A stretch of 64,000 bases of DNA from Candidatus Roizmanbacteria bacterium RIFCSPHIGHO2_02_FULL_37_13b (GCA_001789395.1 MFZK01000021.1:2114-66113); one strand, 5' to 3'. Positions 1 through 43,280 are shown, numbered from the stretch's first letter. Notes: generated by a model from the letters alone, not told the origin. Numbers and translations are program-made.

Positions 1-1905
1 TCGCTTGTTATCTCGACGATATTATCCATAGATCGTCACACCTCTTTTTTTGGTTATTATGGGAGATTTAATGGAGGCTTACTTTCAACAGTTGCATATT
101 TAGTACTTTATTATGGTTTTGTTTCCAATATTGACCTTGATAGACTAAATCTTCTGACAAATAATTTATTACTTAAAATTTCTTTGATTGCATCTTTAAT
201 CGTGATTTTATGGGGTTTGCCAGGTCATTTTGGCTATGATATGAGTTGTTTCGTATTTACCGGAGAATTAAGTAATAACTGTTGGACAAGCCAATTTCGT
301 CCTCATGAAAGGATGTTCTCGACGCTCGGGCAACCAAATTGGCTCGGTGCATATTTAGCCATTAATTTTTTTATCGGGTTATATTTTTTCATACAAAAAT
401 TTCTTAAAAAACAAAATTGGCTGTGGTTCTATATATATTTATTATTAAATTTCGTGGGCATACTTTTTACTCGATCAAGATCGGCTCTCATGGCTCTAAT
501 TGTTGGAATAGTTTTATGTTTTATGTACTTAAGTTTAAAAAAGCAGGTGAATAAAAAACTAATTCTTACGACTTTGATATTGTTCATTTTACCGATCATA
601 TTATTTAAAACAGGGATATCACAAGTTGATAAATACCTATCACTACCGCGTCAAGTCACAAGTAGCGTTTTAAAATCTACTTCAAGTCAGACTGCGATAC
701 CGAATGATTCTTCAGTGACTGAATCTTTTGATATTAGAAAAATTGTTTGGTATGGAGCAATTCAATTAGGATTCAAGTACCCGCTATTTGGGTCGGGTGT
801 TGAAACTTTTGCCTATGCCTATAATTTTGTCAGACCAGCCGCACATAATTTGACATCTGAATGGGATTTCATCTACAACAAAGCGCATAATGAGTATCTT
901 AATTTTTTGGCAACTACTGGTTTTATCGGATTGATATCTTATTTACTGTTGATAATTGGATATTTATTTTTTGTTTTTAGAGCGATTAAAAAACAACAGA
1001 ATTTACTGATCATTTTTTTAACGATTGGTTGGATAACCATTTTGATCACAAACTTTTTTGGGTTCTCAACCACGACGGTTAATATTTATTTTTACCTTAT
1101 ACCGGCCGTTGCCTTCGTTATTACTTTAGACAGTCAGAAGGAGATAATTTATAAGACATTATCATCGATTCAAAAAACATTCTTGATTGTCCCGGTGATT
1201 ATATTCATTTTAGGCACGACTTATATAGTCAATTATTTCTTAGCAGATATAAGTTATGCGGAGGGAGATAATTATTTCAAAATACAGCAATATTCCGCCG
1301 CGGAATCCAAACTGGATCAAGCACTCTCGATGCGTAGTGAACCGGTTTATATGGATAAATTGTCGTCAACTATCGCCAATAAATCCCTATTCGATCTCTC
1401 CTCTGGTCAAACCAATGATAAAAAAGCATTACAGGGGCAAATAAATAATAATTATAAAAAGGCAGTGATGTTTAGCCAACAAGCAATAAACAGTTCTTCA
1501 AGAAATGTTTACTATTGGCGAACGTTTTCAAAAGTTTTGTTTATTTTTTATCAAATAAGTCCGCAAGTGCAGATATATGATCAAGCAATTAAGACATTGG
1601 ATACGGCAATTAATCTTGCTCCAACTGATGCTAAACTTTTTTATACTAAAGCTCTTTTTTATATGTCAAGCGAGGATTCTGACTTAAATAAAGTTAAAAA
1701 TAGTAACGATAATTATGAGAAGGCTCTCATAAATATTGAAAAAGCAATAGAGTTAAAGAAGGATTATCGGGATGTATATCTTCTTAAAGGCACGACGCTT
1801 AATAGATTAGGTCGGAAATCAGAAGCTAAAGTTGTATTTCAATGGATGTTAGAGCAATTTAACCCAAAAGATGAGGAGGTCTTGCACGAATTACAATCCT
1901 TATAG
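1..1905 (+). CDS. O-antigen ligase/Wzy_C-like polytopic membrane protein with C-terminal TPR repeats (5' partial)
   Basis: Frame 1 has no stop from nt 1, so the Met at 184 is internal and the gene starts outside the window. It has many hydrophobic segments. TRSRSALMAL and KAHNEYLNFLATTGFIGL resemble Wzy_C/O-antigen ligase signatures. The C-terminal ~180 aa is TPR-like. Confidence 0.7.
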   Translation, partial: SLVISTILSIDRHTSFFGYYGRFNGGLLSTVAYLVLYYGFVSNIDLDRLNLLTNNLLLKISLIASLIVILWGLPGHFGYDMSCFVFTGELSNNCWTSQFRPHERMFSTLGQPNWLGAYLAINFFIGLYFFIQKFLKKQNWLWFYIYLLLNFVGILFTRSRSALMALIVGIVLCFMYLSLKKQVNKKLILTTLILFILPIILFKTGISQVDKYLSLPRQVTSSVLKSTSSQTAIPNDSSVTESFDIRKIVWYGAIQLGFKYPLFGSGVETFAYAYNFVRPAAHNLTSEWDFIYNKAHNEYLNFLATTGFIGLISYLLLIIGYLFFVFRAIKKQQNLLIIFLTIGWITILITNFFGFSTTTVNIYFYLIPAVAFVITLDSQKEIIYKTLSSIQKTFLIVPVIIFILGTTYIVNYFLADISYAEGDNYFKIQQYSAAESKLDQALSMRSEPVYMDKLSSTIANKSLFDLSSGQTNDKKALQGQINNNYKKAVMFSQQAINSSSRNVYYWRTFSKVLFIFYQISPQVQIYDQAIKTLDTAINLAPTDAKLFYTKALFYMSSEDSDLNKVKNSNDNYEKALINIEKAIELKKDYRDVYLLKGTTLNRLGRKSEAKVVFQWMLEQFNPKDEEVLHELQSL

Positions 1906-3243
1906 TTCTAACCTGTCATTTGAATCGAATTCGAATTTTATCTTCCCGGCGTTAAAAATAATTGATAGTAAAATCAATTGTGCTAGAAAATAATAATTGT
2001 TCATAAACGAATGGTAAAAAAAGTAATTATATACGATGGTTGTTGCAATAAGATAGTCCATAAATGACAATTTTAACGTCAAGATTATGAGCCAAAAAAA
2101 GACTAATAATATGAGACCGTATTTATTAATTAACTCAACATTCATATTGGGAGCAAGATGCCGCATGGCAGCTGGAACCGATAATGCTTGATAATAAGGA
2201 GGAATGAGTACTTTATCAGTAATGGGTGTTGTATTTTGAGAAGCCAATGTTGCAAACTTTTCCGGCAGATATGGAATCAAGATTCGATTTATGAAAGGGG
2301 GAGTTATATTTTTATACATGGCAGAACTTTGATATAGAAAAATAAACGTAAATATAAAAGGAATAAAAAATAAAAAAATTGCTTTAATAGATTGTCGGCG
2401 GACAATTTTTGAAAGTATATGGGGTAGATATATAAAATAATTATGTTTAAAAGAAAAGAAAAGACCGAGGAAAATAAAAGAAAACTTTAATTTTCTATTT
2501 ATGAAAAAGTATATAAATAACAGTAAAAACATTAATAACATAGGTTCTAAATAAGAAAATTCAAGAATATTAAATGTTTGGGGAAAAAAAAGAAAACAAC
2601 TGATTAATAAATTTGAATAACCGTTTTTCTTAAGCAGTTTATATAAAATAAGCGCACTGATTACATTGGCAAATATCAGACCGAATCTAGGGTCGTTAAA
2701 GATAACGACAAAGGGGAATAAATAAATAAGCGATGAGGGCAAATAACCGAGATCGTTACTTGTATTAGGATAAAGCTGGGTGTAATGAATTGCATAGGGA
2801 TCCTTTCCTTGGAATAATGCCATTGGTGATTCTTTCAGAAGGTAATAGACATCAATTTTGGGATCAGGCGAATTGGTAACGACAAATACTGAAATAAATA
2901 TGTAAACAAGCAGTAAGAAAATAATCGAGGTATTTTTCTTCAAAATAAACTGAGATATAAAAATATATCCGGTTAGTCCTAAAACCAATAGCTTTACCAT
3001 GACTCTTGCGTCGATGTTATGAAATATTCCTTGATAAGAAATTGCAGAAAAAAAAAGAATGCCAATAAAAAAGAAAGGGTGGGTTTGATATATCTCGTTC
3101 TTTGACGATTTTCTGATAAAAATAGCCAGAAAATACAATAAGACAATGGTCACTAATATAAAGCCGTAATACGAAAAATATCCCTGCGTTGGCACAAAAG
3201 CGATAAGTAATAACAATAATGGATAAATAGGATTATTAAACAT
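1900..3243 (-). CDS. polytopic membrane protein, putative GT-C-type glycosyltransferase (function uncertain)
   Basis: 447-aa ORF that is almost entirely hydrophobic helices with short loops. It lies between two other glycosyltransferase-like membrane proteins. I recognise no specific family motif. Confidence 0.5.
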   Translation of the reverse strand: MFNNPIYPLLLLLIAFVPTQGYFSYYGFILVTIVLLYFLAIFIRKSSKNEIYQTHPFFFIGILFFSAISYQGIFHNIDARVMVKLLVLGLTGYIFISQFILKKNTSIIFLLLVYIFISVFVVTNSPDPKIDVYYLLKESPMALFQGKDPYAIHYTQLYPNTSNDLGYLPSSLIYLFPFVVIFNDPRFGLIFANVISALILYKLLKKNGYSNLLISCFLFFPQTFNILEFSYLEPMLLMFLLLFIYFFINRKLKFSFIFLGLFFSFKHNYFIYLPHILSKIVRRQSIKAIFLFFIPFIFTFIFLYQSSAMYKNITPPFINRILIPYLPEKFATLASQNTTPITDKVLIPPYYQALSVPAAMRHLAPNMNVELINKYGLILLVFFWLIILTLKLSFMDYLIATTIVYNYFFYHSFMNNYYFLAQLILLSIIFNAGKIKFEFDSNDRLEL

Positions 3244-3249
3244 TGGTAC

Positions 3250-3335
3250 TTATTCCCGCTACGCGAAAACCGATGGGTTATTAACCCGCTTGATGAAGCT
3301 GTCATCGAGACTTTCGCTCCGCGGGATTTCAGCTA
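3250..3335 (-). repeat. structured intergenic element E1 (member of the CGAAGCGAA-core family)
   Basis: Outer stem TCCCGC(3254-3259)/GCGGGA(3321-3326) and inner stem GCGAAA(3263-3268)/TTTCGC(3312-3317). Two apical hairpins: GGGTT..AACCC and GATGA..TCATC. Same architecture and conserved flanks as 5945-6026. Confidence 0.5.
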
Positions 3336-3350
3336 TAAATCTCAATGAAT

Positions 3351-3371
3351 CCGAGGGCTGTTAGCCCTCGG
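3351..3371 (-). terminator. hairpin just downstream of the 3376 gene stop (possible terminator)
   Basis: CCGAGGGCT-gtt-AGCCCTCGG, a 9-bp GC-rich stem starting 5 nt after the stop codon. The U-tract is weak. Confidence 0.4.
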
Positions 3372-3375
3372 AGCT

Positions 3376-5139
3376 TCAATATAATGGTTTGTTTAGCTGT
3401 TTAAACTTATTCATAAATTCTTCTGCATTTTTGCTGTCTTTATAACAATTGGCATAAAGATCAATATATATTTTATAGACCTCTTTTAAATCAACTCGAT
3501 ATTTTTCCGAGGGGCCTAATATTTCTTTTGCTCTATTGCATTGTTTTACTTTTATGAGGCTTTTGGCAAATGCTAAAATATTTATAGTATTATCCGGCCA
3601 TAAATTAAAAGCCTGTTCATATTCACTACTTGAAAATTCATATTGTTTGTCTTTAAATAGGAGTTCCCCAAAGGTCCAATGGCCCAATGAATAAGTTCTA
3701 AGTACGTCAGATAAAAGCAAACTTCTGAATTTAGCTAAAGATCCGGACATTGGTGAATGATATTTATTCCAAAGAAGAATGTTACTGACGATTAATCCTT
3801 TTGCATCAGGCAAAGATTTTCCTTCTGAATAATATTTCCATAAAATACCCATGGGTAACCAGGAAGAATTTTTTGTGTTCAGGGGTTCATTACTATATAT
3901 AGGAAATCTTTCGCTATTAAAAAGTAAGAAATCATGGACAGTGATATCGTAATTACTATTAATTGCGGGTAGTTTTATATTCGGATAAAGTTTGCTTATT
4001 TTCACCTGATATTTAGCATCATTCAGCCGGAGAAAATTGATAAATTTGACGTCACGACGCTGGTGTTGTACCTCTTTTACAAACAGAGAATTGTAAGAAA
4101 TAGTATCACCTTTCAGATTTACTATTGAGTTTTTCTCTACACTATTTAATACGTCAAACCCAAAATTTTCAGCCGTAAAATCCTGTTTTAGAAGAAGAAT
4201 ACGAGGAGAATTATTGATAAAAAGTATTAGACAATAAATTAACAATGATATCGAAAAGGCGGCAGCTCCAGCGATTTTAAGAGTTTTATTGTGAAGTCTA
4301 TTATTTACCAGTCCATTAATTGTTTTAAATCCTAAAAGCAATGCAACTGTTAAGAAAAAGTAAGGTATTAAAAGGTATTTTTCAAAAGTTCCGATTGTAA
4401 AATTAATTGTTAGCGGAAAGGAGGTATAGAAAAAGAAAACAACAAAAATAATAAACTGAATGATAAAAAATTTCTTCATGGCCTCATCCTTCATTTTTAA
4501 TATCGTCACAAAACCGGCAATTATAAAGAATGTGCCAATTATTTTGAAATCAGTCAAAATAAAATTAAAAAAATTGAGTAATGACGTTGTCGCTGCCGAT
4601 AGTGAAAAAAAAGTTGTGCGTGATAATCGGAATATTCCATAATCACTCCGTGCGATCAATCGAAGTAAATCGACTAAATTGCTTGGAAAAGTTGTCTCAA
4701 GGGGTGTTACCGTACCAGCCCTAAAGAGGTAATAAAAATAAGGTGTTCCACCTAAAAAGAATAAAAGGAAGAGTATCAGTCGGTCATGGATCTTTTTAAA
4801 AAAAATAGTCTTTGTCCTGTATAGATAAAAACAAATGCCGGGTATTACCAAAAGTATCAGATAATTGTGAAAAGTTGCAAGTCCTAAGATAAAAAAGAAA
4901 ATACGCATTTGCAGAGCCGTCTTTATATTAGCTCCAAAAGCTAAGTACATTAGAATAGCTAAATATAATATGACCATTGTAATCACCTCAGGAATCGATG
5001 AAAATAGCCATACCGGGTATAGAAAGGAGAAAATAAATGCACCGCATAGCGCTAAATAATCAGACTTAAGTAATTTCCGTAAGGTTAGAAATAGAAAAAT
5101 TCGTGTAATGGCGATTGCAAAAGAAGACAGTAAAGTCAC
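3376..5139 (-). CDS. DUF2723-like GT-C family membrane protein with C-terminal TPR-like region; true N-terminus probably extends to ~5340-5352
   Basis: 587-aa ORF called from a GTG. The same frame stays open upstream to 5361. That upstream stretch encodes ...ICILSSGFLINVFFQSYSIYGGDGGELVTAAYLSSIPHPPGFPLYLLI, which resembles the conserved DUF2723 N-terminal motif (D.GE...HPPGYPLY). Confidence 0.7.
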   Translation of the reverse strand: MTLLSSFAIAITRIFLFLTLRKLLKSDYLALCGAFIFSFLYPVWLFSSIPEVITMVILYLAILMYLAFGANIKTALQMRIFFFILGLATFHNYLILLVIPGICFYLYRTKTIFFKKIHDRLILFLLFFLGGTPYFYYLFRAGTVTPLETTFPSNLVDLLRLIARSDYGIFRLSRTTFFSLSAATTSLLNFFNFILTDFKIIGTFFIIAGFVTILKMKDEAMKKFFIIQFIIFVVFFFYTSFPLTINFTIGTFEKYLLIPYFFLTVALLLGFKTINGLVNNRLHNKTLKIAGAAAFSISLLIYCLILFINNSPRILLLKQDFTAENFGFDVLNSVEKNSIVNLKGDTISYNSLFVKEVQHQRRDVKFINFLRLNDAKYQVKISKLYPNIKLPAINSNYDITVHDFLLFNSERFPIYSNEPLNTKNSSWLPMGILWKYYSEGKSLPDAKGLIVSNILLWNKYHSPMSGSLAKFRSLLLSDVLRTYSLGHWTFGELLFKDKQYEFSSSEYEQAFNLWPDNTINILAFAKSLIKVKQCNRAKEILGPSEKYRVDLKEVYKIYIDLYANCYKDSKNAEEFMNKFKQLNKPLY

Positions 5140-5361
5140 TCTCCATGCGATGCTAGCAAATGGTATAAATTTAACAAAAAACGATGATATTAAAAGATAA
5201 AGTGGGAATCCTGGTGGGTGTGGAATACTTGAAAGATAGGCGGCAGTGACTAGCTCTCCCCCATCTCCACCATATATGCTGTAGCTTTGAAAAAAAACAT
5301 TGATTAAAAAACCACTACTCAGAATACAAATTGTTACAATTCTTTTTAGCAGATTAGTATC

Positions 5362-5883
5362 TTATTGGACACACCAGTAACAGGTTGTTGATGTTCCGCA
5401 GGCTGCTCCCGGGCAGGTCGCATCATCAACACCGTATACATCATATTTTGTATTTGGATCACATCTGAACGACTTAGACGTTGGCTGAAAGCATACCCTA
5501 ATTGAGTCGCTTGTACCCGTTGCAAATACACGTTGAAGATTATTTCCTGCCAAACTTTGGAAATTACTCTTTAATTCTCCCGTAGTCACAATACTGGATA
5601 CTGCAGTAGACATAACAACCGTTGTGAGTGTATCTCCGGATGGTAATGTATCAGCCGTGCATGCTGCATCATCACAGTAAGGCATAAGACTTTTTAAAGC
5701 ATAATAGCGAATGACTGATCCATGGACTTCAGAAACAAGATTTCTGACACTTGTGTCATTTCCTTTTTTAAGCTGTTCAAAAGGATCAAGCGCAGCCAAC
5801 AGTCCAACTGCTAAAGCACCCAAAAGAGCAATTACTATTAAAAGTTCAATCAATGTAAAACCGTGAAGAAATTTTTTTTTCAT
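5362..5883 (-). CDS. type IV pilin (prepilin N-terminal cleavage/methylation motif), probable major pilin
   Basis: MKKKFLHG|FTLIELLIVIALLG is a class III signal peptide. The C-terminus is Cys-rich, and a promoter-like sequence lies upstream of the gene. GC looks higher than in neighbouring genes. Confidence 0.85.
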   Translation of the reverse strand: MKKKFLHGFTLIELLIVIALLGALAVGLLAALDPFEQLKKGNDTSVRNLVSEVHGSVIRYYALKSLMPYCDDAACTADTLPSGDTLTTVVMSTAVSSIVTTGELKSNFQSLAGNNLQRVFATGTSDSIRVCFQPTSKSFRCDPNTKYDVYGVDDATCPGAACGTSTTCYWCVQ

Positions 5884-5907
5884 AAGATTTTTTTAACTTA
5901 CATTTTA

Positions 5908-5937
5908 ATAATAATAACTTGCAGTTGGGTTTGTCAA
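5908..5937 (-). promoter_or_regulatory. sigma70-like promoter for the major pilin gene
   Basis: On the minus strand, TTGACA (5937-5932), an 18-nt spacer, then TATTAT (5913-5908), ~25 nt upstream of the ATG at 5883. Confidence 0.5.
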
Positions 5938-5944
5938 GGGCAAT

Positions 5945-6026
5945 TTTCAATCCTCCTTCGCGAAAATCTTGATCATCAGATTGCAAGACTTAAAAACCAT
6001 TTTTCGCTTCGGCAGGATTTCGGCTC
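5945..6026 (-). repeat. structured intergenic element E2 (member of the CGAAGCGAA-core family)
   Basis: Outer stem AATCCT(5949-5954)/AGGATT(6014-6019) and inner stem GCGAAAA(5960-5966)/TTTTCGC(6001-6007). Conserved CGCGAAAA, AGACTT, TTCGCT and GGATTTC.GCT blocks are shared with 3250-3335. Confidence 0.5.
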
Positions 6027-6071
6027 TTTTGATAAAAGTAAAATGTGTCCCGGTGTCTATTGGCAGGAGCC

Positions 6072-7271
6072 TCAAAATGCATTAGTTAGGTTGTAGATAG
6101 GCGTTATCACCGAAAAGACAATAAATCCGACACCAATAGCTAATACTACTAATATCACAGGTTCAATCATAGTGGTCAATGCTTTGATCGCCAGTTCTGA
6201 TTCCATTTCAAAAAAAACCGACATTTTAAATAAGACTTCATCCAAATGGCCAGTTTGCTCACCTACCGTGGTCATTTGCACCAATATTGGCGGAAAGAGC
6301 TCCAGTTGCCCCATACTTTTTCCCAAAGAATCCCCTTTTTCGACACGGTTTTTAATCGTGGCAAATGCGTCCTGAAAAACCAGATTGCTGGACGTTTCTA
6401 CAGCGATAGATAACGCCTCAATAATAGATACTCCTGATTTCATCAGTATTGAGAGAGTTCGAGTCGTATCAACCAATGCCGACATTTTTATGATCTTATT
6501 AAAAAGCGGTATTTTTAATATTAATCTATCAAACAATTTCTTACCTCGTTTAGTGTGAAGAATCCTTTTCGTCAAAACTACTGCACCAAATATAATTATT
6601 ATGACAAGCGGCCAAGCACGCTGGAAAAAAGAAGAAATTACAATTAGAATTTTGGTGGTTATCGGTAAATCTATATCAAAATCTTTATACAATTCGAGTA
6701 ATTTTGGGATGACAAAGGTTATCATAACAAATATGACTCCAATCATCCCGATAATAATTATCACCGGATATATTAATGCTCCTTTTATCTTAGCTTTAAA
6801 TGTGCGCTGCTTTTCGAGCTGATCTGCTAGGCGGACAAGTATTTCATCAAGTTTGCCAGATGCCTCACCAGACTTGACCAATGCAATATAGAGGTTGTTA
6901 AAGTGATGCGGATATTGACTCATCGCTAAGGATAAACTGTTTCCTGCTCTAATGCTGTCATCTAAACTATTGATAAGCCTGAGCATTGCCGGATTAGTCG
7001 TCTGCTTTTTTAAAATATCTAAGGCATCGATTATCGTCAATCCGGCATTAAACATAATCGCGAGTTGACGAGTAAAATCGACAATATCTGAATGACCAAC
7101 GCTTGCGAAATATTTATTCTGCATCTCATTGAATAAATTTTTATGCTCAAATATATCAACAATGAGGTAATTTTTTGCTTTGAGATATTCTATCAACTTT
7201 TGTTTGTTATCAGCCTCTATGTTTGCTTTAATCAGGACATTGTTTTTCAGAGCCTTATAGGTGAATTTCAT
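6072..7271 (-). CDS. pilC: type IV pilus platform protein PilC (GspF family)
   Basis: 399 aa with a duplicated GspF-like domain and three TM regions. It sits adjacent to the pilT and pilB ATPases. Confidence 0.85.
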   Translation of the reverse strand: MKFTYKALKNNVLIKANIEADNKQKLIEYLKAKNYLIVDIFEHKNLFNEMQNKYFASVGHSDIVDFTRQLAIMFNAGLTIIDALDILKKQTTNPAMLRLINSLDDSIRAGNSLSLAMSQYPHHFNNLYIALVKSGEASGKLDEILVRLADQLEKQRTFKAKIKGALIYPVIIIIGMIGVIFVMITFVIPKLLELYKDFDIDLPITTKILIVISSFFQRAWPLVIIIIFGAVVLTKRILHTKRGKKLFDRLILKIPLFNKIIKMSALVDTTRTLSILMKSGVSIIEALSIAVETSSNLVFQDAFATIKNRVEKGDSLGKSMGQLELFPPILVQMTTVGEQTGHLDEVLFKMSVFFEMESELAIKALTTMIEPVILVVLAIGVGFIVFSVITPIYNLTNAF

Positions 7272-19632: not shown

Positions 19633-22188
19633 ATGAACGTTCCGCGTTTAATAAGATATCGAAGTAGACGTCGACGGCTTATCCGTATCCCTGCGACTAC
19701 AAGTATCGTTCGTTTGTTTTTTTTTACCGTATTAATCGCAACAATTCTGGTTTTTGCTATGTTCTTATGGTATTCAAAAGATTTACCCGAGCCCGGAAAA
19801 GTAAAAAGAAGCAGTGGCTATTCAACGGTAATTTATGATCGCAATGACAAGATCATATTTGAAATGTACAAGGACGAAAATAGAATACCAGTGAAATTAT
19901 CAGAAATTTCAGTCTTTCTGAAAAAAGCAACGGTATCAATTGAAGATAAGGATTTTTATCGACATAGTGGATTTTCATTACGCGGATATTTGCGAGCTTT
20001 TGTGAGTTCATTGATTCATCGTCGAGTTGAAGGTGGATCGACATTAACGCAACAATTAGTAAAAACAGCTCTTCTTTCATCAGAAAGAACATTTACAAGA
20101 AAGATCAAAGAGTTCGTTTTGGCGGCTGAAATAGAAAGACGGTATACTAAGGATGAAATTTTAGAGATGTATCTTAATGAGATACCGTACGGTGGAACAT
20201 ATGTTGGTATAGAATCAGCAGCTAAAGGCTATTTCGGTAAATCTGCTAAGGATTTAACATTAGTCGAATCGTCAATATTAGCAGGATTACCACAACGACC
20301 TTCTTATTATTCCCCATTTATCGGGAAGCCCGGCGCATACATCGAAAGGGCAAAAAATGTTCTAAGAAGAATGAAAGAAGATAATGTGATAACATCTCCG
20401 CAACAATCGAAAGCTTTGAATGAATTAATTAATATTAAGTTCGAAAAAGCATATAGTTCTATAAACGCTCCTCATTTTGTCTTCTATGTTGCCGATCAAG
20501 TAACTCAAATGTTTGGTAAAGATATCATGGATCGTGGAGTAAAAATAAAAACGACAATCGATTTAGATCTTCAAAAAAAAGTAGAGGAAATTGTTAAAAC
20601 AGAAATCGAAAAGATTAAGAAATTTGATGCTACAAATGGTGCTATAGTCGTTCTAGATAATGACACTGGTGAAATATTAGCAATGGTTGGTTCTTATGAT
20701 TATAATGATGAAAAATTTGGGCGTTTCAATACAGCACTTGCGCATCGTCAACCTGGTTCAGCCATTAAACCGATTACTTATGCCGTTGCTTTAGAAAAGG
20801 GTTATACGGCATCGACAGTCTTAATGGATGTAAAAACCATTTTTCCAAATCAAGGGGGTAAAGATTATGAACCTGTGGATTATGATGGTAAATTCCGTGG
20901 ACCTATACAGCTTCGATTTGCATTAGGAAATTCAATCAATATTCCAGCTGTAAAATTATTGGCCATGGGTGGTGTTCGAAATTTCCTGCAGAAAGCTTAT
21001 GATTTTGGTTTGAATAGTTTTGAGCCGACCACTCAAAATTTAAAAAGATTTGGTTTAGCAATTACTCTAGGTGGAGGAGAAACTACACTTCTTGATTTGA
21101 GTTCGGCCTACGCAACAATAGCCAGAGGAGGAATAAGAAAAGATTATTTATCGCTTTTTGAGGTAACAGATTATAAAAATAACAAATTATATCAAGCAAA
21201 AAAAAGTCCGGAAAAAAAAGCTATAAATCAAGATGTAGCTTTCATACTTTCACATATCCTTTCTGATAATAATGCGAGAGCTGATGTATTTGGCCTACGA
21301 AGCTATTTGAATATCCCAGGCAAAACCGTTGCGGTAAAGACAGGTACGACCAATGATTTAAGAGACAACTGGACAGTAGGGTTTACAAAATCGGTAACAG
21401 TCGGTGTTTGGGTGGGAAATAATGACAATTCTCCGATGAATTCAAAAATTGCCTCAGGTGTCACCGGTGCATCCCCCATCTGGAGTCAAGTAATGGCTCT
21501 ACTTTTAAAAGAGAAATCCGATGGAATCATCGATAAACCAGATAATGTTCTTGCTTTAGAAGTTGATGCTATTTTAGGAGGTTTGCCAAGACAAGGATCT
21601 CCTACGCGTTCTGAATACTTTATTGATGGAACCCAACCAAAAGAAATCTCTCCTTTTTATAAACGTCTGAAGATTTCAAAAAGTACCGGTAAATTGGCTA
21701 ATGAAATTGAAATACGACTTGGTGATTTTGATGAAAAAGAATTTATAGTGATTGAAGAAGCTGATCCGATTTCTACAGATGGAATTAATAGGTGGCAACA
21801 AGCAATTGACGCCTGGAGTGCGAGTCAATCAGATGAAAAATATCATGCGCCTAAAGAATCTTCTACTGCCAAAGTTGATGATATCTCAGTTCAAATAAAA
21901 AACCCGGGAGATAAGACGCAAAATAGCAATAATGTTAATTTGAGGGCTCGTATAGCGTCCCTTGATCCTGTGACTAACATTGAGATCTCTGTCAATGGAT
22001 CTATTGTTAAAACTTATCGCGAAGATAAAAAAGAGATAGATGAAAATTTAACTCTCGATGATGGCTATTATATTCTTCGAGTAATGGCCGTAAATTCTAA
22101 AGGAAAAGCTGGTGATAGTGTGGTTAAAATAGGTGTTAATAAAGAATATAAAGATGAAGTTTTTATAACCCCGATAGTCACACCTTAA
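19633..22188 (+). CDS. class A penicillin-binding protein (transglycosylase/transpeptidase) with a C-terminal Ig-like extension
   Basis: Glycosyltransferase motifs EDKDFYRHSGF and GGSTLTQQL. Transpeptidase motifs SAIKP (SxxK), SIN (SxN) and KTGT. Confidence 0.9.
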   Translation: MNVPRLIRYRSRRRRLIRIPATTSIVRLFFFTVLIATILVFAMFLWYSKDLPEPGKVKRSSGYSTVIYDRNDKIIFEMYKDENRIPVKLSEISVFLKKATVSIEDKDFYRHSGFSLRGYLRAFVSSLIHRRVEGGSTLTQQLVKTALLSSERTFTRKIKEFVLAAEIERRYTKDEILEMYLNEIPYGGTYVGIESAAKGYFGKSAKDLTLVESSILAGLPQRPSYYSPFIGKPGAYIERAKNVLRRMKEDNVITSPQQSKALNELINIKFEKAYSSINAPHFVFYVADQVTQMFGKDIMDRGVKIKTTIDLDLQKKVEEIVKTEIEKIKKFDATNGAIVVLDNDTGEILAMVGSYDYNDEKFGRFNTALAHRQPGSAIKPITYAVALEKGYTASTVLMDVKTIFPNQGGKDYEPVDYDGKFRGPIQLRFALGNSINIPAVKLLAMGGVRNFLQKAYDFGLNSFEPTTQNLKRFGLAITLGGGETTLLDLSSAYATIARGGIRKDYLSLFEVTDYKNNKLYQAKKSPEKKAINQDVAFILSHILSDNNARADVFGLRSYLNIPGKTVAVKTGTTNDLRDNWTVGFTKSVTVGVWVGNNDNSPMNSKIASGVTGASPIWSQVMALLLKEKSDGIIDKPDNVLALEVDAILGGLPRQGSPTRSEYFIDGTQPKEISPFYKRLKISKSTGKLANEIEIRLGDFDEKEFIVIEEADPISTDGINRWQQAIDAWSASQSDEKYHAPKESSTAKVDDISVQIKNPGDKTQNSNNVNLRARIASLDPVTNIEISVNGSIVKTYREDKKEIDENLTLDDGYYILRVMAVNSKGKAGDSVVKIGVNKEYKDEVFITPIVTP

Positions 22189-42289: not shown

Positions 42290-42373
42290 GCCGCGGTGGT
42301 GGAATGGTAGACACGCAGGACTTAAAATCCTGTAACTGCATAAGTTGTGAGAGTTCGACTCTCTCCCGCGGCA
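42290..42373 (+). tRNA. tRNA-Leu (anticodon TAA)
   Basis: Acceptor GCCGCGG/CCGCGGC, anticodon loop CTTAAAA, long variable arm, T-arm GAGAGTTCGACTCTCTC. Confidence 0.85.
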
Positions 42374-42412
42374 CTCTCTTGAAACGAAAGTAACTAGTTG
42401 GGATAAGGCACA

Positions 42413-42460
42413 GCCGACTTAGCTCAGTGGTAGATCCACCTGCTTTCATGCAGGAGGATC
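42413..42460 (+). other. tRNA-like 5' fragment fused to an 11-bp hairpin (probable tRNA remnant)
   Basis: GCCGACTTAGCTCAGTGGTAGA looks like a tRNA acceptor 5' strand plus D-arm. It continues into GATCCACCTGC-tttcat-GCAGGAGGATC (one mismatch, 6-nt loop). No T-arm or 3' acceptor strand follows. Confidence 0.35.
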
Positions 42461-42482
42461 CGCTTTGTATAGGAAATTGTAA

Positions 42483-42557
42483 GCCGTCCTAGCTCAATGG
42501 CAGAGCAAACGCTTTGTAAGCGTTAGGTTATCGGTTCAAGTCCGATGGACGGCTCCA
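42483..42557 (+). tRNA. tRNA-Thr (anticodon TGT), CCA encoded
   Basis: Acceptor GCCGTCC/GGACGGC, anticodon loop TTTGTAA, T-arm TCGGTTCAAGTCCGA, 3' TCCA. Confidence 0.85.
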
Positions 42558-42558
42558 T

Positions 42559-42631
42559 GTCCTCGTAGCTCAACGGATAGAGCAACTCCCTTCTAAGGAG
42601 TAGGTTGCGTGTTCGATTCACGCCGAGGACG
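42559..42631 (+). tRNA. tRNA-Arg (anticodon TCT)
   Basis: Acceptor GTCCTCG/CGAGGAC, anticodon loop CTTCTAA, T-arm GCGTGTTCGATTCACGC. Confidence 0.85.
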
Positions 42632-43108
42632 CTTATTAAGATCAATATTACTGCCAATTTCAAGTTTAGATCTCGCTACTTCACCGGCATTTAATTCAAT
42701 TACTTTATCAGCTGATTTATCAGACGTGAATACTTTAGGAAAAGTATTGGGTGTAATGTTTACTAAAGTATCAACTATTTGGTTGTTATTTAAATAAATA
42801 AAATCAAGAGAATAATTCATATCCTTCATCCAAAATCCGAATTTACCAGCCGTTGGAAAAATAAATAGCATTCCTTCATCACTATTTAGTTTTTTGCTAT
42901 ATGATAATCCTTTTGTTCGTTTAGAATCATCGTCCGCCACATATAAGTGATATCTATTAGAGCCGATTTGCACATGTTCAATTTGATAATCTTTAAATTC
43001 AGGATTAACCGAATAAAAAAAACTGGAAATTATGTTATTGAGAGATTGGTGATATAAAAAAAAAGCCAGACCTAAGAATATTATAATAGCTATAGAATTT
43101 TTTTTCAC
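42593..43108 (-). CDS. DUF192-family secreted protein
   Basis: GTG start at 43108 gives VKKNSIAIIIFLGLAFF (signal/TM). GMLFIFP...FWMKDMNYSLDFIYL matches the DUF192 core. The track's longer N-terminus reads through two tRNA genes. Confidence 0.7.
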   Translation of the reverse strand: MKKNSIAIIIFLGLAFFLYHQSLNNIISSFFYSVNPEFKDYQIEHVQIGSNRYHLYVADDDSKRTKGLSYSKKLNSDEGMLFIFPTAGKFGFWMKDMNYSLDFIYLNNNQIVDTLVNITPNTFPKVFTSDKSADKVIELNAGEVARSKLEIGSNIDLNKRPRRESNTQPTP

Positions 43109-43115
43109 AAATGGG

Positions 43116-43188
43116 TGGTCGCTGAGGGATTTGAACCCCCGACACCTGCGATGTAAACGCAGTGCTCTAACCGCTGAGCTAAGCGACC
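43116..43188 (-). tRNA. tRNA-Val (anticodon TAC)
   Basis: Acceptor GGTCGCT/AGCGACC, anticodon loop TTTACAT, T-arm GGGGGTTCAAATCCCTC. Confidence 0.85.
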
Positions 43189-43196
43189 TTATATTG

Positions 43197-43280
43197 TGCC
43201 CAGGAGAGGACTTGAACCTCCACGCCGTTGCCGGCACAGCCTCCTCAAGACTGCGCGTATACCAATTCCGCCACCTGGGC
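43197..43280 (-). tRNA. tRNA-Leu (anticodon GAG)
   Basis: Acceptor GCCCAGG/CCTGGGC, anticodon loop TTGAGGA, long variable arm, T-arm GGAGGTTCAAGTCCTCT. Confidence 0.85.

What the first reader, a model, noticed from the sequence alone, without database searches (positions are those of the whole stretch)
5140..5364. Conserved N-terminus of the GT gene has no canonical start codon and is in frame with the pilin stop codon
Translating the minus strand upstream of the called GTG (5139) gives an open frame back to 5361. It encodes ...KRIVTICILSSGFLINVFFQSYSIYGGDGGELVTAAYLSSIPHPPGFPLYLLI. This is a TM helix plus what looks like the hallmark DUF2723 motif, so it is almost certainly coding. Between that motif and the next upstream stop there is no in-frame ATG, GTG or TTG; only CTG (5352-5350) and ATT (5340-5338, 5331-5329) occur. 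The upstream stop is the pilin TAA (5364-5362), in the same frame. An out-of-frame ATG (5300-5298) is followed by a T8 run (A8 on the plus strand, 5290-5297). One extra T would put that ATG in frame (MFFFQSYSIYGGDGG...). The options are a non-canonical start, a homopolymer length error or slippage switch, or low-level readthrough producing a pilin-GT fusion.
Basis: seen in the sequence. Interest (0 to 1): 0.55.

Follow-up and report, generated by a model that had tools for sequence, protein, structure and literature searches.

The report
Pilin-linked glycosyltransferase gene lacking normal start codon
A membrane glycosyltransferase gene just after a pilin gene in an uncultured groundwater bacterium has lost its normal start codon but is still clearly protein-coding, so it most likely starts at a rare CTG codon nine bases after the pilin stop; public annotation cuts off its essential front end.

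Summary
On the minus strand the pilin gene ends at TAA 5364-5362. The same frame stays open to 3376 and has no ATG, GTG or TTG before GTG 5139. Those 71-74 codons encode the first transmembrane helix and the sugar-recognition motif of a TMEM260-like (DUF2723) GT-C glycosyltransferase. They include Asp30 and His45, which align with the essential D52 and H67 of human TMEM260.

The region shows coding-type divergence from the only close relative (L001, 59% identical). L001 has the same layout: TAA, 9 nt, CTG CTA AAR.

Fifty-one other pilin-transferase junctions all have an ordinary start, usually ATG, at or next to the position of CTG/CTA. Four further assemblies, at least partly independent, give identical sequence including the T8 run, so a homopolymer error is not supported. 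The ATG+T8 is absent from L001 and its product would lack helix 1. The pilin stop falls in all three frames across relatives (18/12/16), and a fusion would invert the enzyme's topology, so readthrough is unlikely.

Best explanation: near-cognate initiation at CTG 5352-5350 (alternative ATT 5340-5338) on the pilin-transferase mRNA, probably by ribosomes that have just terminated on pilin. This is a modestly interesting example of a known phenomenon and an annotation fix.

The parts
5908..5937 (-). Promoter-like site TTGACA-18-TATTAT upstream of the pilin gene; likely start of the pilin-transferase transcript
   Evidence: 11 of 12 consensus matches, the best in 3200-6200. No comparable promoter and no terminator-like site between pilin and transferase. 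Consensus match only.
5362..5883 (-). Type IV prepilin gene (173 aa) with stop TAA at 5364-5362
   Evidence: Pfam N_methyl motif. 88-89% identical to the L001 pilin. The C-terminal CYWCVQ-stop recurs in many relatives.
5353..5361 (-). 9-nt linker GATACTAAT between the pilin stop and the CTG; most likely untranslated
   Evidence: All three codons differ from L001 (DTN vs TIK) while the length is kept.
5350..5352 (-). CTG, the most likely initiation codon of the transferase
   Evidence: Conserved with the next codon (CTG CTA AA) in L001 at the same 9-nt distance from TAA. It lies one codon upstream of where the nearest relatives have ATG AAA AGA. It leaves 27 residues before GGD, as in orthologs.
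5338..5340 (-). ATT, the alternative near-cognate initiation codon (residue 5)
   Evidence: Also conserved in L001. It would still leave a helix of about 16 residues. It is 21 nt from the pilin stop.
5293..5349 (-). Transmembrane helix 1 (residues 2-20 counted from CTG)
   Evidence: AlphaFold2 helix 2-20, pLDDT 80-90. It aligns to TMH1 of human TMEM260. All orthologs have a hydrophobic segment here.
5167..5292 (-). Sugar-recognition motif region (residues 21-62), with Asp30 (5265-5263) and His45 (5220-5218)
   Evidence: Both residues are invariant in alignments A2 and A3. They align to D52 and H67 of human TMEM260, which are essential in mutagenesis (preprint 10.64898/2026.03.17.711096).
5290..5300 (-). 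Out-of-frame ATG (5300-5298) plus T8 run (5297-5290); judged incidental
   Evidence: Identical in four further assemblies. Absent from L001.
5137..5139 (-). GTG, the first canonical in-frame start (residue 72, inside TMH2); not the real start
   Evidence: The AlphaFold2 helix 68-95 spans it.
4948..4950 (-). ATG used by the GenBank annotation (524-aa product, residue 135); a truncated call
   Evidence: P0001 begins MYLAFGANIK. Gene call in L002.
3376..5352 (-). Full TMEM260-like GT-C glycosyltransferase ORF (658 aa from CTG): GT-C membrane core, Rossmann-like domain, C-terminal TPR
   Evidence: Family profile vs human TMEM260 (9RQL) E=5e-74. AlphaFold2 mean pLDDT 90.1, pTM 0.89. Foldseek top hits are GT-C enzymes. 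Orthologs are 649-680 aa.

Best explanation
The gene at 5352-3376 (minus strand) is an intact, functional TMEM260-like GT-C glycosyltransferase. In the common ancestor of this organism and one known relative, the ancestral ATG start was lost. Translation now most likely begins at the near-cognate codon CTG 5352-5350, giving fMet-Leu-Lys-Arg-Ile-Val followed by transmembrane helix 1. It is read from the same mRNA as the upstream pilin gene. The CTG lies only 9 nt after the pilin TAA, the genome hardly uses Shine-Dalgarno sites, and no promoter or terminator-like site separates the two genes. So initiation is probably carried out mainly by ribosomes that have just terminated on the heavily translated pilin ORF (termination-reinitiation coupling). 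That would yield a small amount of enzyme per pilin made. Shown: the coding status of the startless stretch, the lack of a canonical start, conservation of the layout in a diverged relative, and ordinary starts in all other relatives. Inferred: which near-cognate codon is used, and that reinitiation is the route.
For: 1. The startless stretch is coding and indispensable.
- Pfam PF11028 matches from profile position 1.
- The family profile matches human TMEM260 at E=5e-74, with window D30, H45, R235, Y238 and D416 aligned to human D52, H67, R264, Y267 and D441.
- Alanine substitution of D52, R264, Y267 or D441, and mutation of H67, abolish activity in the human enzyme.
- The AlphaFold2 model is confident (pLDDT 90.1) with helix 2-20 as TMH1, while GTG 5139 falls inside TMH2.

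2. There is purifying selection against L001.
- Differences by codon position over codons 1-71 are 18/14/38 (Fisher p=1e-5).
- Over codons 28-71 they are 9/4/27.
- pN is 0.23 and pS 0.65 for the N-terminal 71 codons; for the whole gene pN is 0.26 and pS 0.80.

3. L001 (59% identity) shares the layout: TAA, 9 nt, CTG CTA AAR ARA ATT, with no canonical start.

4. All 44 other distinct pilin-transferase junctions in the first set have a canonical start 20-44 codons upstream of GGD (38 ATG, 3 GTG, 3 TTG by a heuristic choice). So do 7 more of the nearest relatives.

5. The nearest relatives read ...GCAG ATG AAA AGA GTT (L167), ATG AAT AAA AGA GTC (L166) and AATCTGC ATG ATC AAA AAG (L121), against AATCTG CTA AAA AGA ATT in the window. 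This places the lost ATG at or next to CTA, one codon after the CTG.

6. Coupling is plausible.
- 16 of 44 relatives have stop-to-start spacing of 12 nt or less, including TAATG overlaps.
- Only 6 of 48 genes in the window have even a 4-mer Shine-Dalgarno-like match.
- No promoter or terminator-like site lies between pilin and transferase.
- The literature reports that reinitiation needs very short distances, with about 20 nt almost abolishing coupling (PMC10666635).
- CUG and AUU initiate at about 1-2% of AUG in E. coli (10.1101/063800).

7. The sequence is identical in four further assemblies.
Against: - No direct evidence of the N-terminus exists (no proteomics or ribosome profiling).
- CTG and ATT are both conserved in the only two members of the clade, which share one ancestral event, so the comparison cannot choose between them.
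- Codons 1-27 show no third-position bias (9/10/11 differences). Conservation therefore does not prove that codons 1-4 are translated.
- Near-cognate initiation efficiencies and the distance dependence of reinitiation were measured in E. coli and Haloferax, not in Patescibacteria.
- Reinitiation at non-canonical codons has not been demonstrated for this organism group.
- The L001 copy has lost about 55 C-terminal residues of its TPR domain, which hints at some relaxation of constraint in that lineage.
Confidence: 0.6

Rival explanations
1. Initiation is at ATT 5340-5338 (residue 5), as in E. coli infC and pcnB, giving Met-Val-Thr-Ile-Cys... with an uncharged N-terminus. The conserved CTGCTAAARARA just upstream would then be untranslated leader.
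For: ATT is conserved in L001. AUU is a confirmed natural start in E. coli. Several orthologs have equally short, uncharged N-termini 22-24 residues before GGD, for example L080, L103 and L124. In the outgroups this position is GTT or GTC, so the change to ATT could be a compensatory gain.
Against: ATT lies 21 nt from the pilin stop, a distance at which reinitiation was nearly abolished in tested systems. No Shine-Dalgarno-like element is present. The Lys-Arg/Lys-Lys codons upstream are kept through one synonymous and one conservative change (AAA/AAG, AGA/AAA), and they match the MKK/MKR N-termini of the nearest orthologs. That fits these codons being translated.
Confidence: 0.2
2. Low-level readthrough of the pilin TAA yields a pilin-transferase fusion protein, which supplies the enzyme.
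For: The pilin stop and the transferase are in the same frame in both startless genomes.
Against: Among 46 related junctions the frame is 0/+1/+2 in 18/12/16 cases, so being in frame is what chance gives. TAA is this genome's commonest stop codon (25 of 49) and no suppressor tRNA is seen in the window. The linker codons are not conserved. There is no significant RNA structure (z = -0.22 and +0.65). Topology (inference from pilin biology and the TMEM260 structure): the pilin globular domain is outside the membrane, so helix 1 of a fusion would cross from outside to inside and put the sugar-recognition loop in the cytoplasm, inverting the whole GT-C core.
Confidence: 0.04
3. The T8 run is a sequencing error or a slippage switch: T9, or a -1 ribosomal slip on T TTT TTC, brings ATG 5300-5298 into frame (MFFFQSYSIYGGD...).
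For: The ATG and the slippery run exist. U UUU UUC is formally a -1 slippery heptamer (established knowledge).
Against: Four further assemblies from different pipelines and samples all give T8. L001 has neither the ATG nor the T run yet is equally startless. The product would lack transmembrane helix 1, which every ortholog and human TMEM260 possess.
Confidence: 0.03
4. The gene is no longer properly expressed. It is a start-codon-loss pseudogene, or only an N-terminally truncated product is made from GTG 5139 or ATG 4950, as annotated.
For: This is what ORF finders and GenBank imply. L001 has also lost the end of its TPR domain.
Against: A 658-codon frame has stayed open in a 33% GC genome in two lineages whose synonymous sites are saturated (pS 0.80) while pN is 0.26. 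The startless part itself shows coding-type divergence and keeps every catalytic residue. A product from 5139 or 4950 would lack D30 and H45, whose human equivalents are essential.
Confidence: 0.05

Closest known systems
Genes with near-cognate start codons in bacteria (E. coli infC and pcnB with AUU; rare annotated CUG starts)
   Same: There is no AUG/GUG/UUG. A near-cognate codon (CUG or AUU) sits where the start must be. Weak initiation is expected, which suits a protein needed in small amounts.
   Different: Here the start is inferred, not demonstrated. It arose by loss of an ancestral ATG, in an organism that largely lacks Shine-Dalgarno sites. No autoregulatory logic like that of infC is evident.
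Translational coupling by termination-reinitiation of closely spaced co-directional genes (Huber et al. 2019 and 2023; review PMC12548453)
   Same: Co-directional pair, 9 nt between stop and presumed start, no separate ribosome-binding signal. Many relatives of this same gene pair have overlaps or spacings of 12 nt or less.
   Different: Classic cases use -4 or -1 overlaps and AUG or GUG. Reinitiation on CUG, and in Patescibacteria, is untested. The partners are enzyme and presumed substrate rather than subunits of a complex.
Human TMEM260 protein O-mannosyltransferase (PDB 9RQL; Pfam PF11028, formerly DUF2723)
   Same: Same architecture: GT-C membrane core, Rossmann-like domain and TPR. The aligned residues D52, H67, R264, Y267 and D441 are conserved. 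Profile E-value is 5e-74.
   Different: This is a bacterial protein of unknown donor and acceptor. The donor would be a bacterial polyprenyl-phosphate sugar rather than dolichyl-phosphate-mannose. The human acceptor sequon was not looked for in the pilin.
Pilin-adjacent pilin glycosyltransferases of Pseudomonas aeruginosa (TfpO/PilO of the Wzy_C type; TfpW of the GT-C type) (from my own knowledge)
   Same: A membrane glycosyltransferase gene lies immediately downstream of the major pilin gene, suggesting that the pilin is the substrate.
   Different: It is a different enzyme family (TMEM260-like). No evidence was obtained here that the pilin is glycosylated.

Membership tests
TMEM260-like / DUF2723 GT-C glycosyltransferases (PF11028) | Significant match to the family profile that includes its N-terminal end | tested here: met
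   PF11028 at 67.3 bits (cut-off 24.2), profile positions 1-174 on residues 33-184 of the extended ORF. Family profile vs 9RQL E=5e-74.
TMEM260-like / DUF2723 GT-C glycosyltransferases (PF11028) | Sugar-recognition motif between TMH1 and TMH2 with the essential Asp and His (human D52, H67) | tested here: met
   GGD30xGE ... H45PPGFP. Both residues are invariant in 26 sequences and align to D52 and H67.
TMEM260-like / DUF2723 GT-C glycosyltransferases (PF11028) | Donor-loading-loop Arg and Tyr, and the catalytic-base Asp in the Rossmann-like domain (human R264, Y267, D441) | tested here: met
   R235 and Y238 are nearly invariant and D416 is invariant. They align to R264, Y267 and D441 in the HMM alignment.
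TMEM260-like / DUF2723 GT-C glycosyltransferases (PF11028) | GT-C multi-pass fold plus a C-terminal TPR domain | tested here: met
   AlphaFold2 pLDDT 90.1. Foldseek top hits are PglB, STT3, DPY19, ArnT, ALG9/12 and AftA. TPR structures match profile positions 555-650.
TMEM260-like / DUF2723 GT-C glycosyltransferases (PF11028) | Transfer of a sugar from a polyprenyl-phosphate donor to a protein Ser/Thr | not testable with these tools
   Needs biochemistry or glycoproteomics.
Genes initiated at a near-cognate (non-AUG/GUG/UUG) codon | No canonical start upstream of residues that must be translated | tested here: met
   No ATG, GTG or TTG in 5361-5140. Essential D30 and H45 and TMH1 lie in that stretch.
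Genes initiated at a near-cognate (non-AUG/GUG/UUG) codon | Near-cognate codon at the expected start position, conserved in relatives that share the state | tested here: met
   CTG and ATT are both conserved in L001 at identical positions. There are only two lineages and one ancestral event.
Genes initiated at a near-cognate (non-AUG/GUG/UUG) codon | Experimentally mapped N-terminus or initiation site | not testable with these tools
   No proteomic or ribosome-profiling data are available.
Termination-reinitiation coupled gene pairs | Co-directional genes with overlap or a very short stop-to-start distance (below about 20 nt) | tested here: met
   9 nt from TAA to CTG; 21 nt if ATT is used. 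Distance criterion from PMC10666635.
Termination-reinitiation coupled gene pairs | Same transcript, with no independent promoter or ribosome-binding site for the downstream gene | tested here: inconclusive
   No promoter-like, terminator-like or Shine-Dalgarno-like site was found at the junction. These are consensus scans only, and the genome is largely Shine-Dalgarno-less anyway.
Termination-reinitiation coupled gene pairs | Downstream translation depends on upstream translation | not testable with these tools
   Needs reporter experiments.
Programmed stop-codon readthrough fusion | In-frame arrangement conserved across relatives | tested here: not met
   Frames 0/+1/+2 occur in 18/12/16 of 46 junctions.
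Programmed stop-codon readthrough fusion | Leaky stop context or a stimulatory RNA structure; linker under coding constraint | tested here: not met
   The stop is TAA, the commonest in this genome. Fold z-scores are -0.22 and +0.65. All three linker codons differ.
Programmed frameshift or slippage at a homopolymer | Slippery run and upstream start conserved in relatives; product carries all required domains | tested here: not met
   The ATG+T8 is absent from L001. The product would lack TMH1. T8 is invariant in four further assemblies.

The most novel reading that the evidence does not exclude
A gene that lost its start codon has stayed functional through long divergence, with synonymous sites saturated. 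It would be expressed entirely by ribosomes that finish the pilin ORF and restart on a near-cognate CUG 9 nt downstream, without any Shine-Dalgarno signal. This would fix a low enzyme-to-pilin ratio in a Patescibacteria (CPR) bacterium. The same data show a TMEM260-like transferase gene immediately downstream of the major pilin gene in more than 50 distinct junctions, mostly from Microgenomates-type Patescibacteria. This would point to pilin O-glycosylation by bacterial relatives of a human O-mannosyltransferase.
Probability: 0.35. Interest if true: 0.55.

Novelty: new member of a known kind. Interest (0 to 1): 0.4.

Why it matters
- **Annotation.** The public annotation of this gene (524 aa) and of its closest relative (569 aa) removes the first transmembrane helix and residues shown to be essential in the human homolog. 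Function prediction from those records would be wrong. Gene callers limited to ATG/GTG/TTG will repeat the error.
- **Translation biology.** This is a clean natural case of start-codon loss that evolution has tolerated. It occurs in a lineage with almost no Shine-Dalgarno usage and unusual ribosomes. A reporter assay or a single N-terminal peptide would show how such organisms pick start sites and whether reinitiation can use CUG.
- **Pilus biology.** The conserved pilin-transferase pairing gives a concrete candidate enzyme for pilin glycosylation in CPR bacteria, which the Saccharibacteria pilus preprint read here calls unexplored.

Tried and rejected
- **Homopolymer or assembly error.** Aligned 5100-5420 with four further assemblies (NCBI, Logan, two ENA). 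All 321 columns are identical. Rejected.
- **ATG+T8 slippage.** Not conserved in L001, and the product lacks TMH1. Rejected.
- **Conserved in-frame readthrough.** Frame counts of 18/12/16 over 46 junctions. Rejected as a family trait.
- **RNA element at the junction.** Folds are not better than shuffles, and Rfam finds only tRNAs in the window.
- **Genome-wide non-canonical starts or stop-codon reassignment.** The only other long ORF with a startless leader above 22 codons looks like a shadow ORF. All three stops are used and TAA is commonest. None of the 10 tRNAs in the window is a suppressor or unusual.
- **Shine-Dalgarno site in front of CTG or ATT.** None found, but the genome barely uses them (6 of 48 genes), so this does not discriminate.
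- **More members of the startless clade.** A protein search with the transferase and with the pilin found only L001. The next pilins are 68% identical or less, and the four junctions read from that group have ATG. The metagenome and genome scans added none.
- **Structure prediction.** The first attempt failed because the alignment contained L001. It was repeated without it.
- **Foldseek against PDB.** It did not return TMEM260 itself, which is apparently not in that structural library. The sequence-profile search did.

Full report
**What is there**

The window comes from Candidatus Roizmanbacteria bacterium RIFCSPHIGHO2_02_FULL_37 (Patescibacteria/CPR); the annotated protein P0001 is 100% identical.

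On the minus strand lies a type IV pilus cluster: PilB-like ATPase 10094-8370, PilT-like ATPase 8345-7293, PilC-like platform protein 7271-6072, and prepilin 5883-5362. The pilin ends CYWCVQ-TAA (5364-5362).

The same reading frame then runs GAT ACT AAT CTG CTA AAA AGA ATT GTA ... and stays open to TGA 3378-3376. The first in-frame ATG/GTG/TTG is GTG 5139, 74 codons after the stop.

**The startless stretch is coding and indispensable**

- **Family match.** Pfam PF11028 (TMEM260-like, formerly DUF2723) matches from its first profile position at residue 33 of the extended ORF.
- **Match to the human enzyme.** A profile of 26 family members matches human TMEM260 (PDB 9RQL) at E=5e-74. In that alignment the window's Asp30 (5265-5263), His45 (5220-5218), Arg235, Tyr238 and Asp416 fall on human D52, H67, R264, Y267 and D441.
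- **Those residues matter.** The cryo-EM and mutagenesis preprint (10.64898/2026.03.17.711096) reports that D52A, R264A, Y267A, D441A and mutation of H67 abolish activity. D52 and H67 lie in the sugar-recognition motif between transmembrane helices 1 and 2.
- **Structure.** An AlphaFold2 model of the 658-aa protein counted from CTG is confident (mean pLDDT 90.1, pTM 0.89). Helix 2-20 is TMH1, and helix 68-95 contains the residue encoded by GTG 5139. Foldseek's best PDB hits are GT-C enzymes: PglB, STT3, DPY19, ArnT, ALG9/12 and AftA.
- **Consequence.** A protein starting at GTG 5139, or at the annotated ATG 4950 (P0001, 524 aa), would lack TMH1 and the essential Asp and His.

**Comparative evidence**

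Full-length homologs of 649-680 aa begin MKK/MNKR/MKR, then a hydrophobic helix, then YFQSxSIYGGDxGELVTA.

I collected 165 related loci from metagenomes and GTDB genomes. In each I located the GGDxGE...HxPG motif and the upstream pilin stop. The results:

- Forty-six distinct junctions have a pilin gene directly upstream.
- Forty-four of them have a canonical start 20-44 codons before GGD (38 ATG, 3 GTG, 3 TTG by a heuristic choice).
- Sixteen of those have a stop-to-start spacing of 12 nt or less, including TAATG overlaps.
- Only the window lineage and one other contig (L001, ENA ANAN16-1 scaffold_82684) have no canonical start.

L001's transferase is 59% identical and its pilin 88-89% identical. 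It has the same layout: CAA TAA ACT ATT AAA CTG CTA AAG AAA ATT.

Seven more of the nearest relatives, found through the transferase or the pilin, all have ATG. Their sequences place the lost ATG:

- L167 reads AATAAGATATACTTGCAG ATG AAA AGA GTT.
- L166 reads AAATCTGCTATAATCTTTCA ATG AAT AAA AGA GTC.
- L121 reads CATAATCTGC ATG ATC AAA AAG.
- The window reads AATAAGATACTAATCTG CTA AAA AGA ATT.

The ancestral ATG therefore sat at or next to today's CTA (5349-5347). The CTG (5352-5350) derives from sequence just upstream of it.

**Selection**

Between the window and L001, differences by codon position show a coding signature:

| Region | Differences at codon positions 1/2/3 | Note |
|---|---|---|
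| Codons 1-71 | 18/14/38 | Fisher p=1e-5 for a third-position excess |
| Codons 28-71 | 9/4/27 | clear third-position excess |
| Codons 1-27 (TMH1) | 9/10/11 | no bias; keeps length, frame and hydrophobicity |

By the Nei-Gojobori method, pN is 0.23 and pS 0.65 for the N-terminal 71 codons. For the whole gene pN is 0.26 and pS 0.80.

A 658-codon frame kept open in a 33% GC genome over that divergence rules out a dead gene. One caveat: L001's copy has lost about 55 C-terminal residues of the TPR domain, and the next gene follows directly.

- **Homopolymer error or slippage.** Four further assemblies (GenBank MGAV01000024, a Logan assembly of SRR2090153, and two ENA assemblies) are identical over 5100-5420, T8 included. 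L001 has no ATG or T run at that place. The product would lack TMH1. Rejected.
- **Readthrough fusion.** The frame of the pilin stop relative to the transferase is 0/+1/+2 in 18/12/16 junctions. TAA is the commonest stop codon here (25 of 49), and the ten tRNAs in the window include no suppressor. The three linker codons all differ from L001, and the junction RNA folds no better than shuffles. By inference from pilin topology and the TMEM260 structure, a fusion would send helix 1 through the membrane from outside to inside and put the catalytic loop in the cytoplasm. Unlikely.
- **Non-canonical start.** This is the option left. To keep TMH1, initiation must occur at or before residue 5. The only near-cognate codons there are CTG (residue 1) and ATT (residue 5), and both are conserved in L001.

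**Mechanism proposed**

The points below bear on how initiation could work:

- The genome scarcely uses Shine-Dalgarno sites: 6 of 48 genes have even a 4-mer match.
- A strong promoter-like site (TTGACA-18-TATTAT, 5937-5908) precedes the pilin gene. Nothing promoter-like or terminator-like lies between pilin and transferase.
- The CTG is 9 nt past the pilin stop. I infer that it lies within the footprint of a terminating ribosome.
- Published work shows that reinitiation after termination needs overlaps or very short spacers and is almost lost by about 20 nt (PMC10666635; review PMC12548453).
- CUG and AUU initiate at about 1-2% of AUG in E. coli (10.1101/063800).

I therefore propose that ribosomes finishing the pilin ORF restart at CTG. 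Major pilins were highly expressed in Saccharibacteria; that this pilin is too is an assumption. The product would be fMet-Leu-Lys-Arg-Ile-Val..., close to the ancestral Met-Lys-Arg-Val, in small amounts suited to a catalytic partner.

ATT, 21 nt from the stop, is the main alternative. The choice of codon and the reinitiation route are inferences. Nothing here measures translation.

**Comparison with known things, and novelty**

The enzyme meets every sequence and fold criterion tested for the TMEM260-like GT-C family. Its donor and acceptor are unknown.

Near-cognate starts and translational coupling are both known phenomena. This is a new, evolutionarily retained instance in a CPR bacterium, created by loss of an ATG. 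It also shows that the public gene models (P0001 at 524 aa, P0002 at 569 aa) are truncated.

The more general by-product is the pilin-transferase pairing: a TMEM260-like transferase immediately downstream of the major pilin in more than 50 distinct junctions. The Saccharibacteria pilus preprint I read does not mention this pairing (no occurrence of TMEM260, DUF2723 or GT-C), and I did not read the other search hits. The pairing suggests pilin glycosylation.

**Verdict**

- Observation: confirmed.
- Interpretation: partly supported. The non-canonical start stands; slippage and fusion do not.
- Interest: moderate, 0.4.

Noticed in passing
window 3376-5883 (-); loci L006-L172: A TMEM260-like (DUF2723) GT-C transferase gene lies immediately downstream of the major type IV pilin gene in more than 50 distinct junctions (46 in the first set plus 7 more), mostly from Microgenomates-type Patescibacteria. 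Where longer contigs were read (window, L166, L169) the order is PilB-PilT-PilC-pilin-transferase. This suggests the pilin is the enzyme's substrate. The one CPR pilus paper read does not mention the pairing.
   Followed up: partly
window 1900-3243 (-) and 184-1905 (+): Directly downstream of the transferase is a 447-aa multi-pass membrane protein with no Pfam match, syntenic in L001. It is followed on the other strand by a Wzy_C (O-antigen-ligase-like) plus TPR protein. That is the family of the PilO/PglL pilin O-oligosaccharyltransferases (my own knowledge), so the locus may carry a second glycosylation activity.
   Followed up: no
window, e.g. upstream of ATGs at 19633 (+), 25235 (-), 30412 (-), 35504 (-), 35540 (+), 40123 (-), 52925 (+); L166 3985-4003; L169 3080-3094: Many genes have a TATAAT-like box ending only 5-12 nt before the ATG, and hardly any have a Shine-Dalgarno site (6 of 48). 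This suggests leaderless or near-leaderless mRNAs are common. In relatives L166 and L169 the transferase itself has an extended -10 (TGCTATAAT / TGTATAAT) 6-7 nt before its ATG.
   Followed up: partly
L001 3780-4566: The closest relative's transferase ends about 55 residues early, losing the last TPR helices and two otherwise invariant cysteines. The next gene overlaps its stop by 4 nt. This is either real C-terminal erosion or a deletion in that lineage.
   Followed up: partly
L002 2090-2500 (GenBank MGAV01000024.1) and L001 2039-2149: Public gene calls leave 411 nt (GenBank, this organism) and 111 nt (ENA, relative) of 'intergenic' space that is in fact the 5' coding region of the transferase. 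P0001 carries no Pfam domain for that reason.
   Followed up: yes
window 5346-5531 (-): A 61-codon GTG ORF in another frame overlaps the 3' end of the pilin gene. Its TAA (5348-5346) sits inside the CTG CTA AAA junction. It is probably a chance ORF.
   Followed up: no
window 42290-43280: A cluster of tRNA genes lies on both strands: Leu-TAA, Thr-TGT and Arg-TCT on the plus strand, Val-TAC and Leu-GAG on the minus strand. The minus-strand pair (43114-43280) falls inside the stop-to-stop ORF 43303-42593 (236 codons), so that ORF is probably spurious.
   Followed up: no
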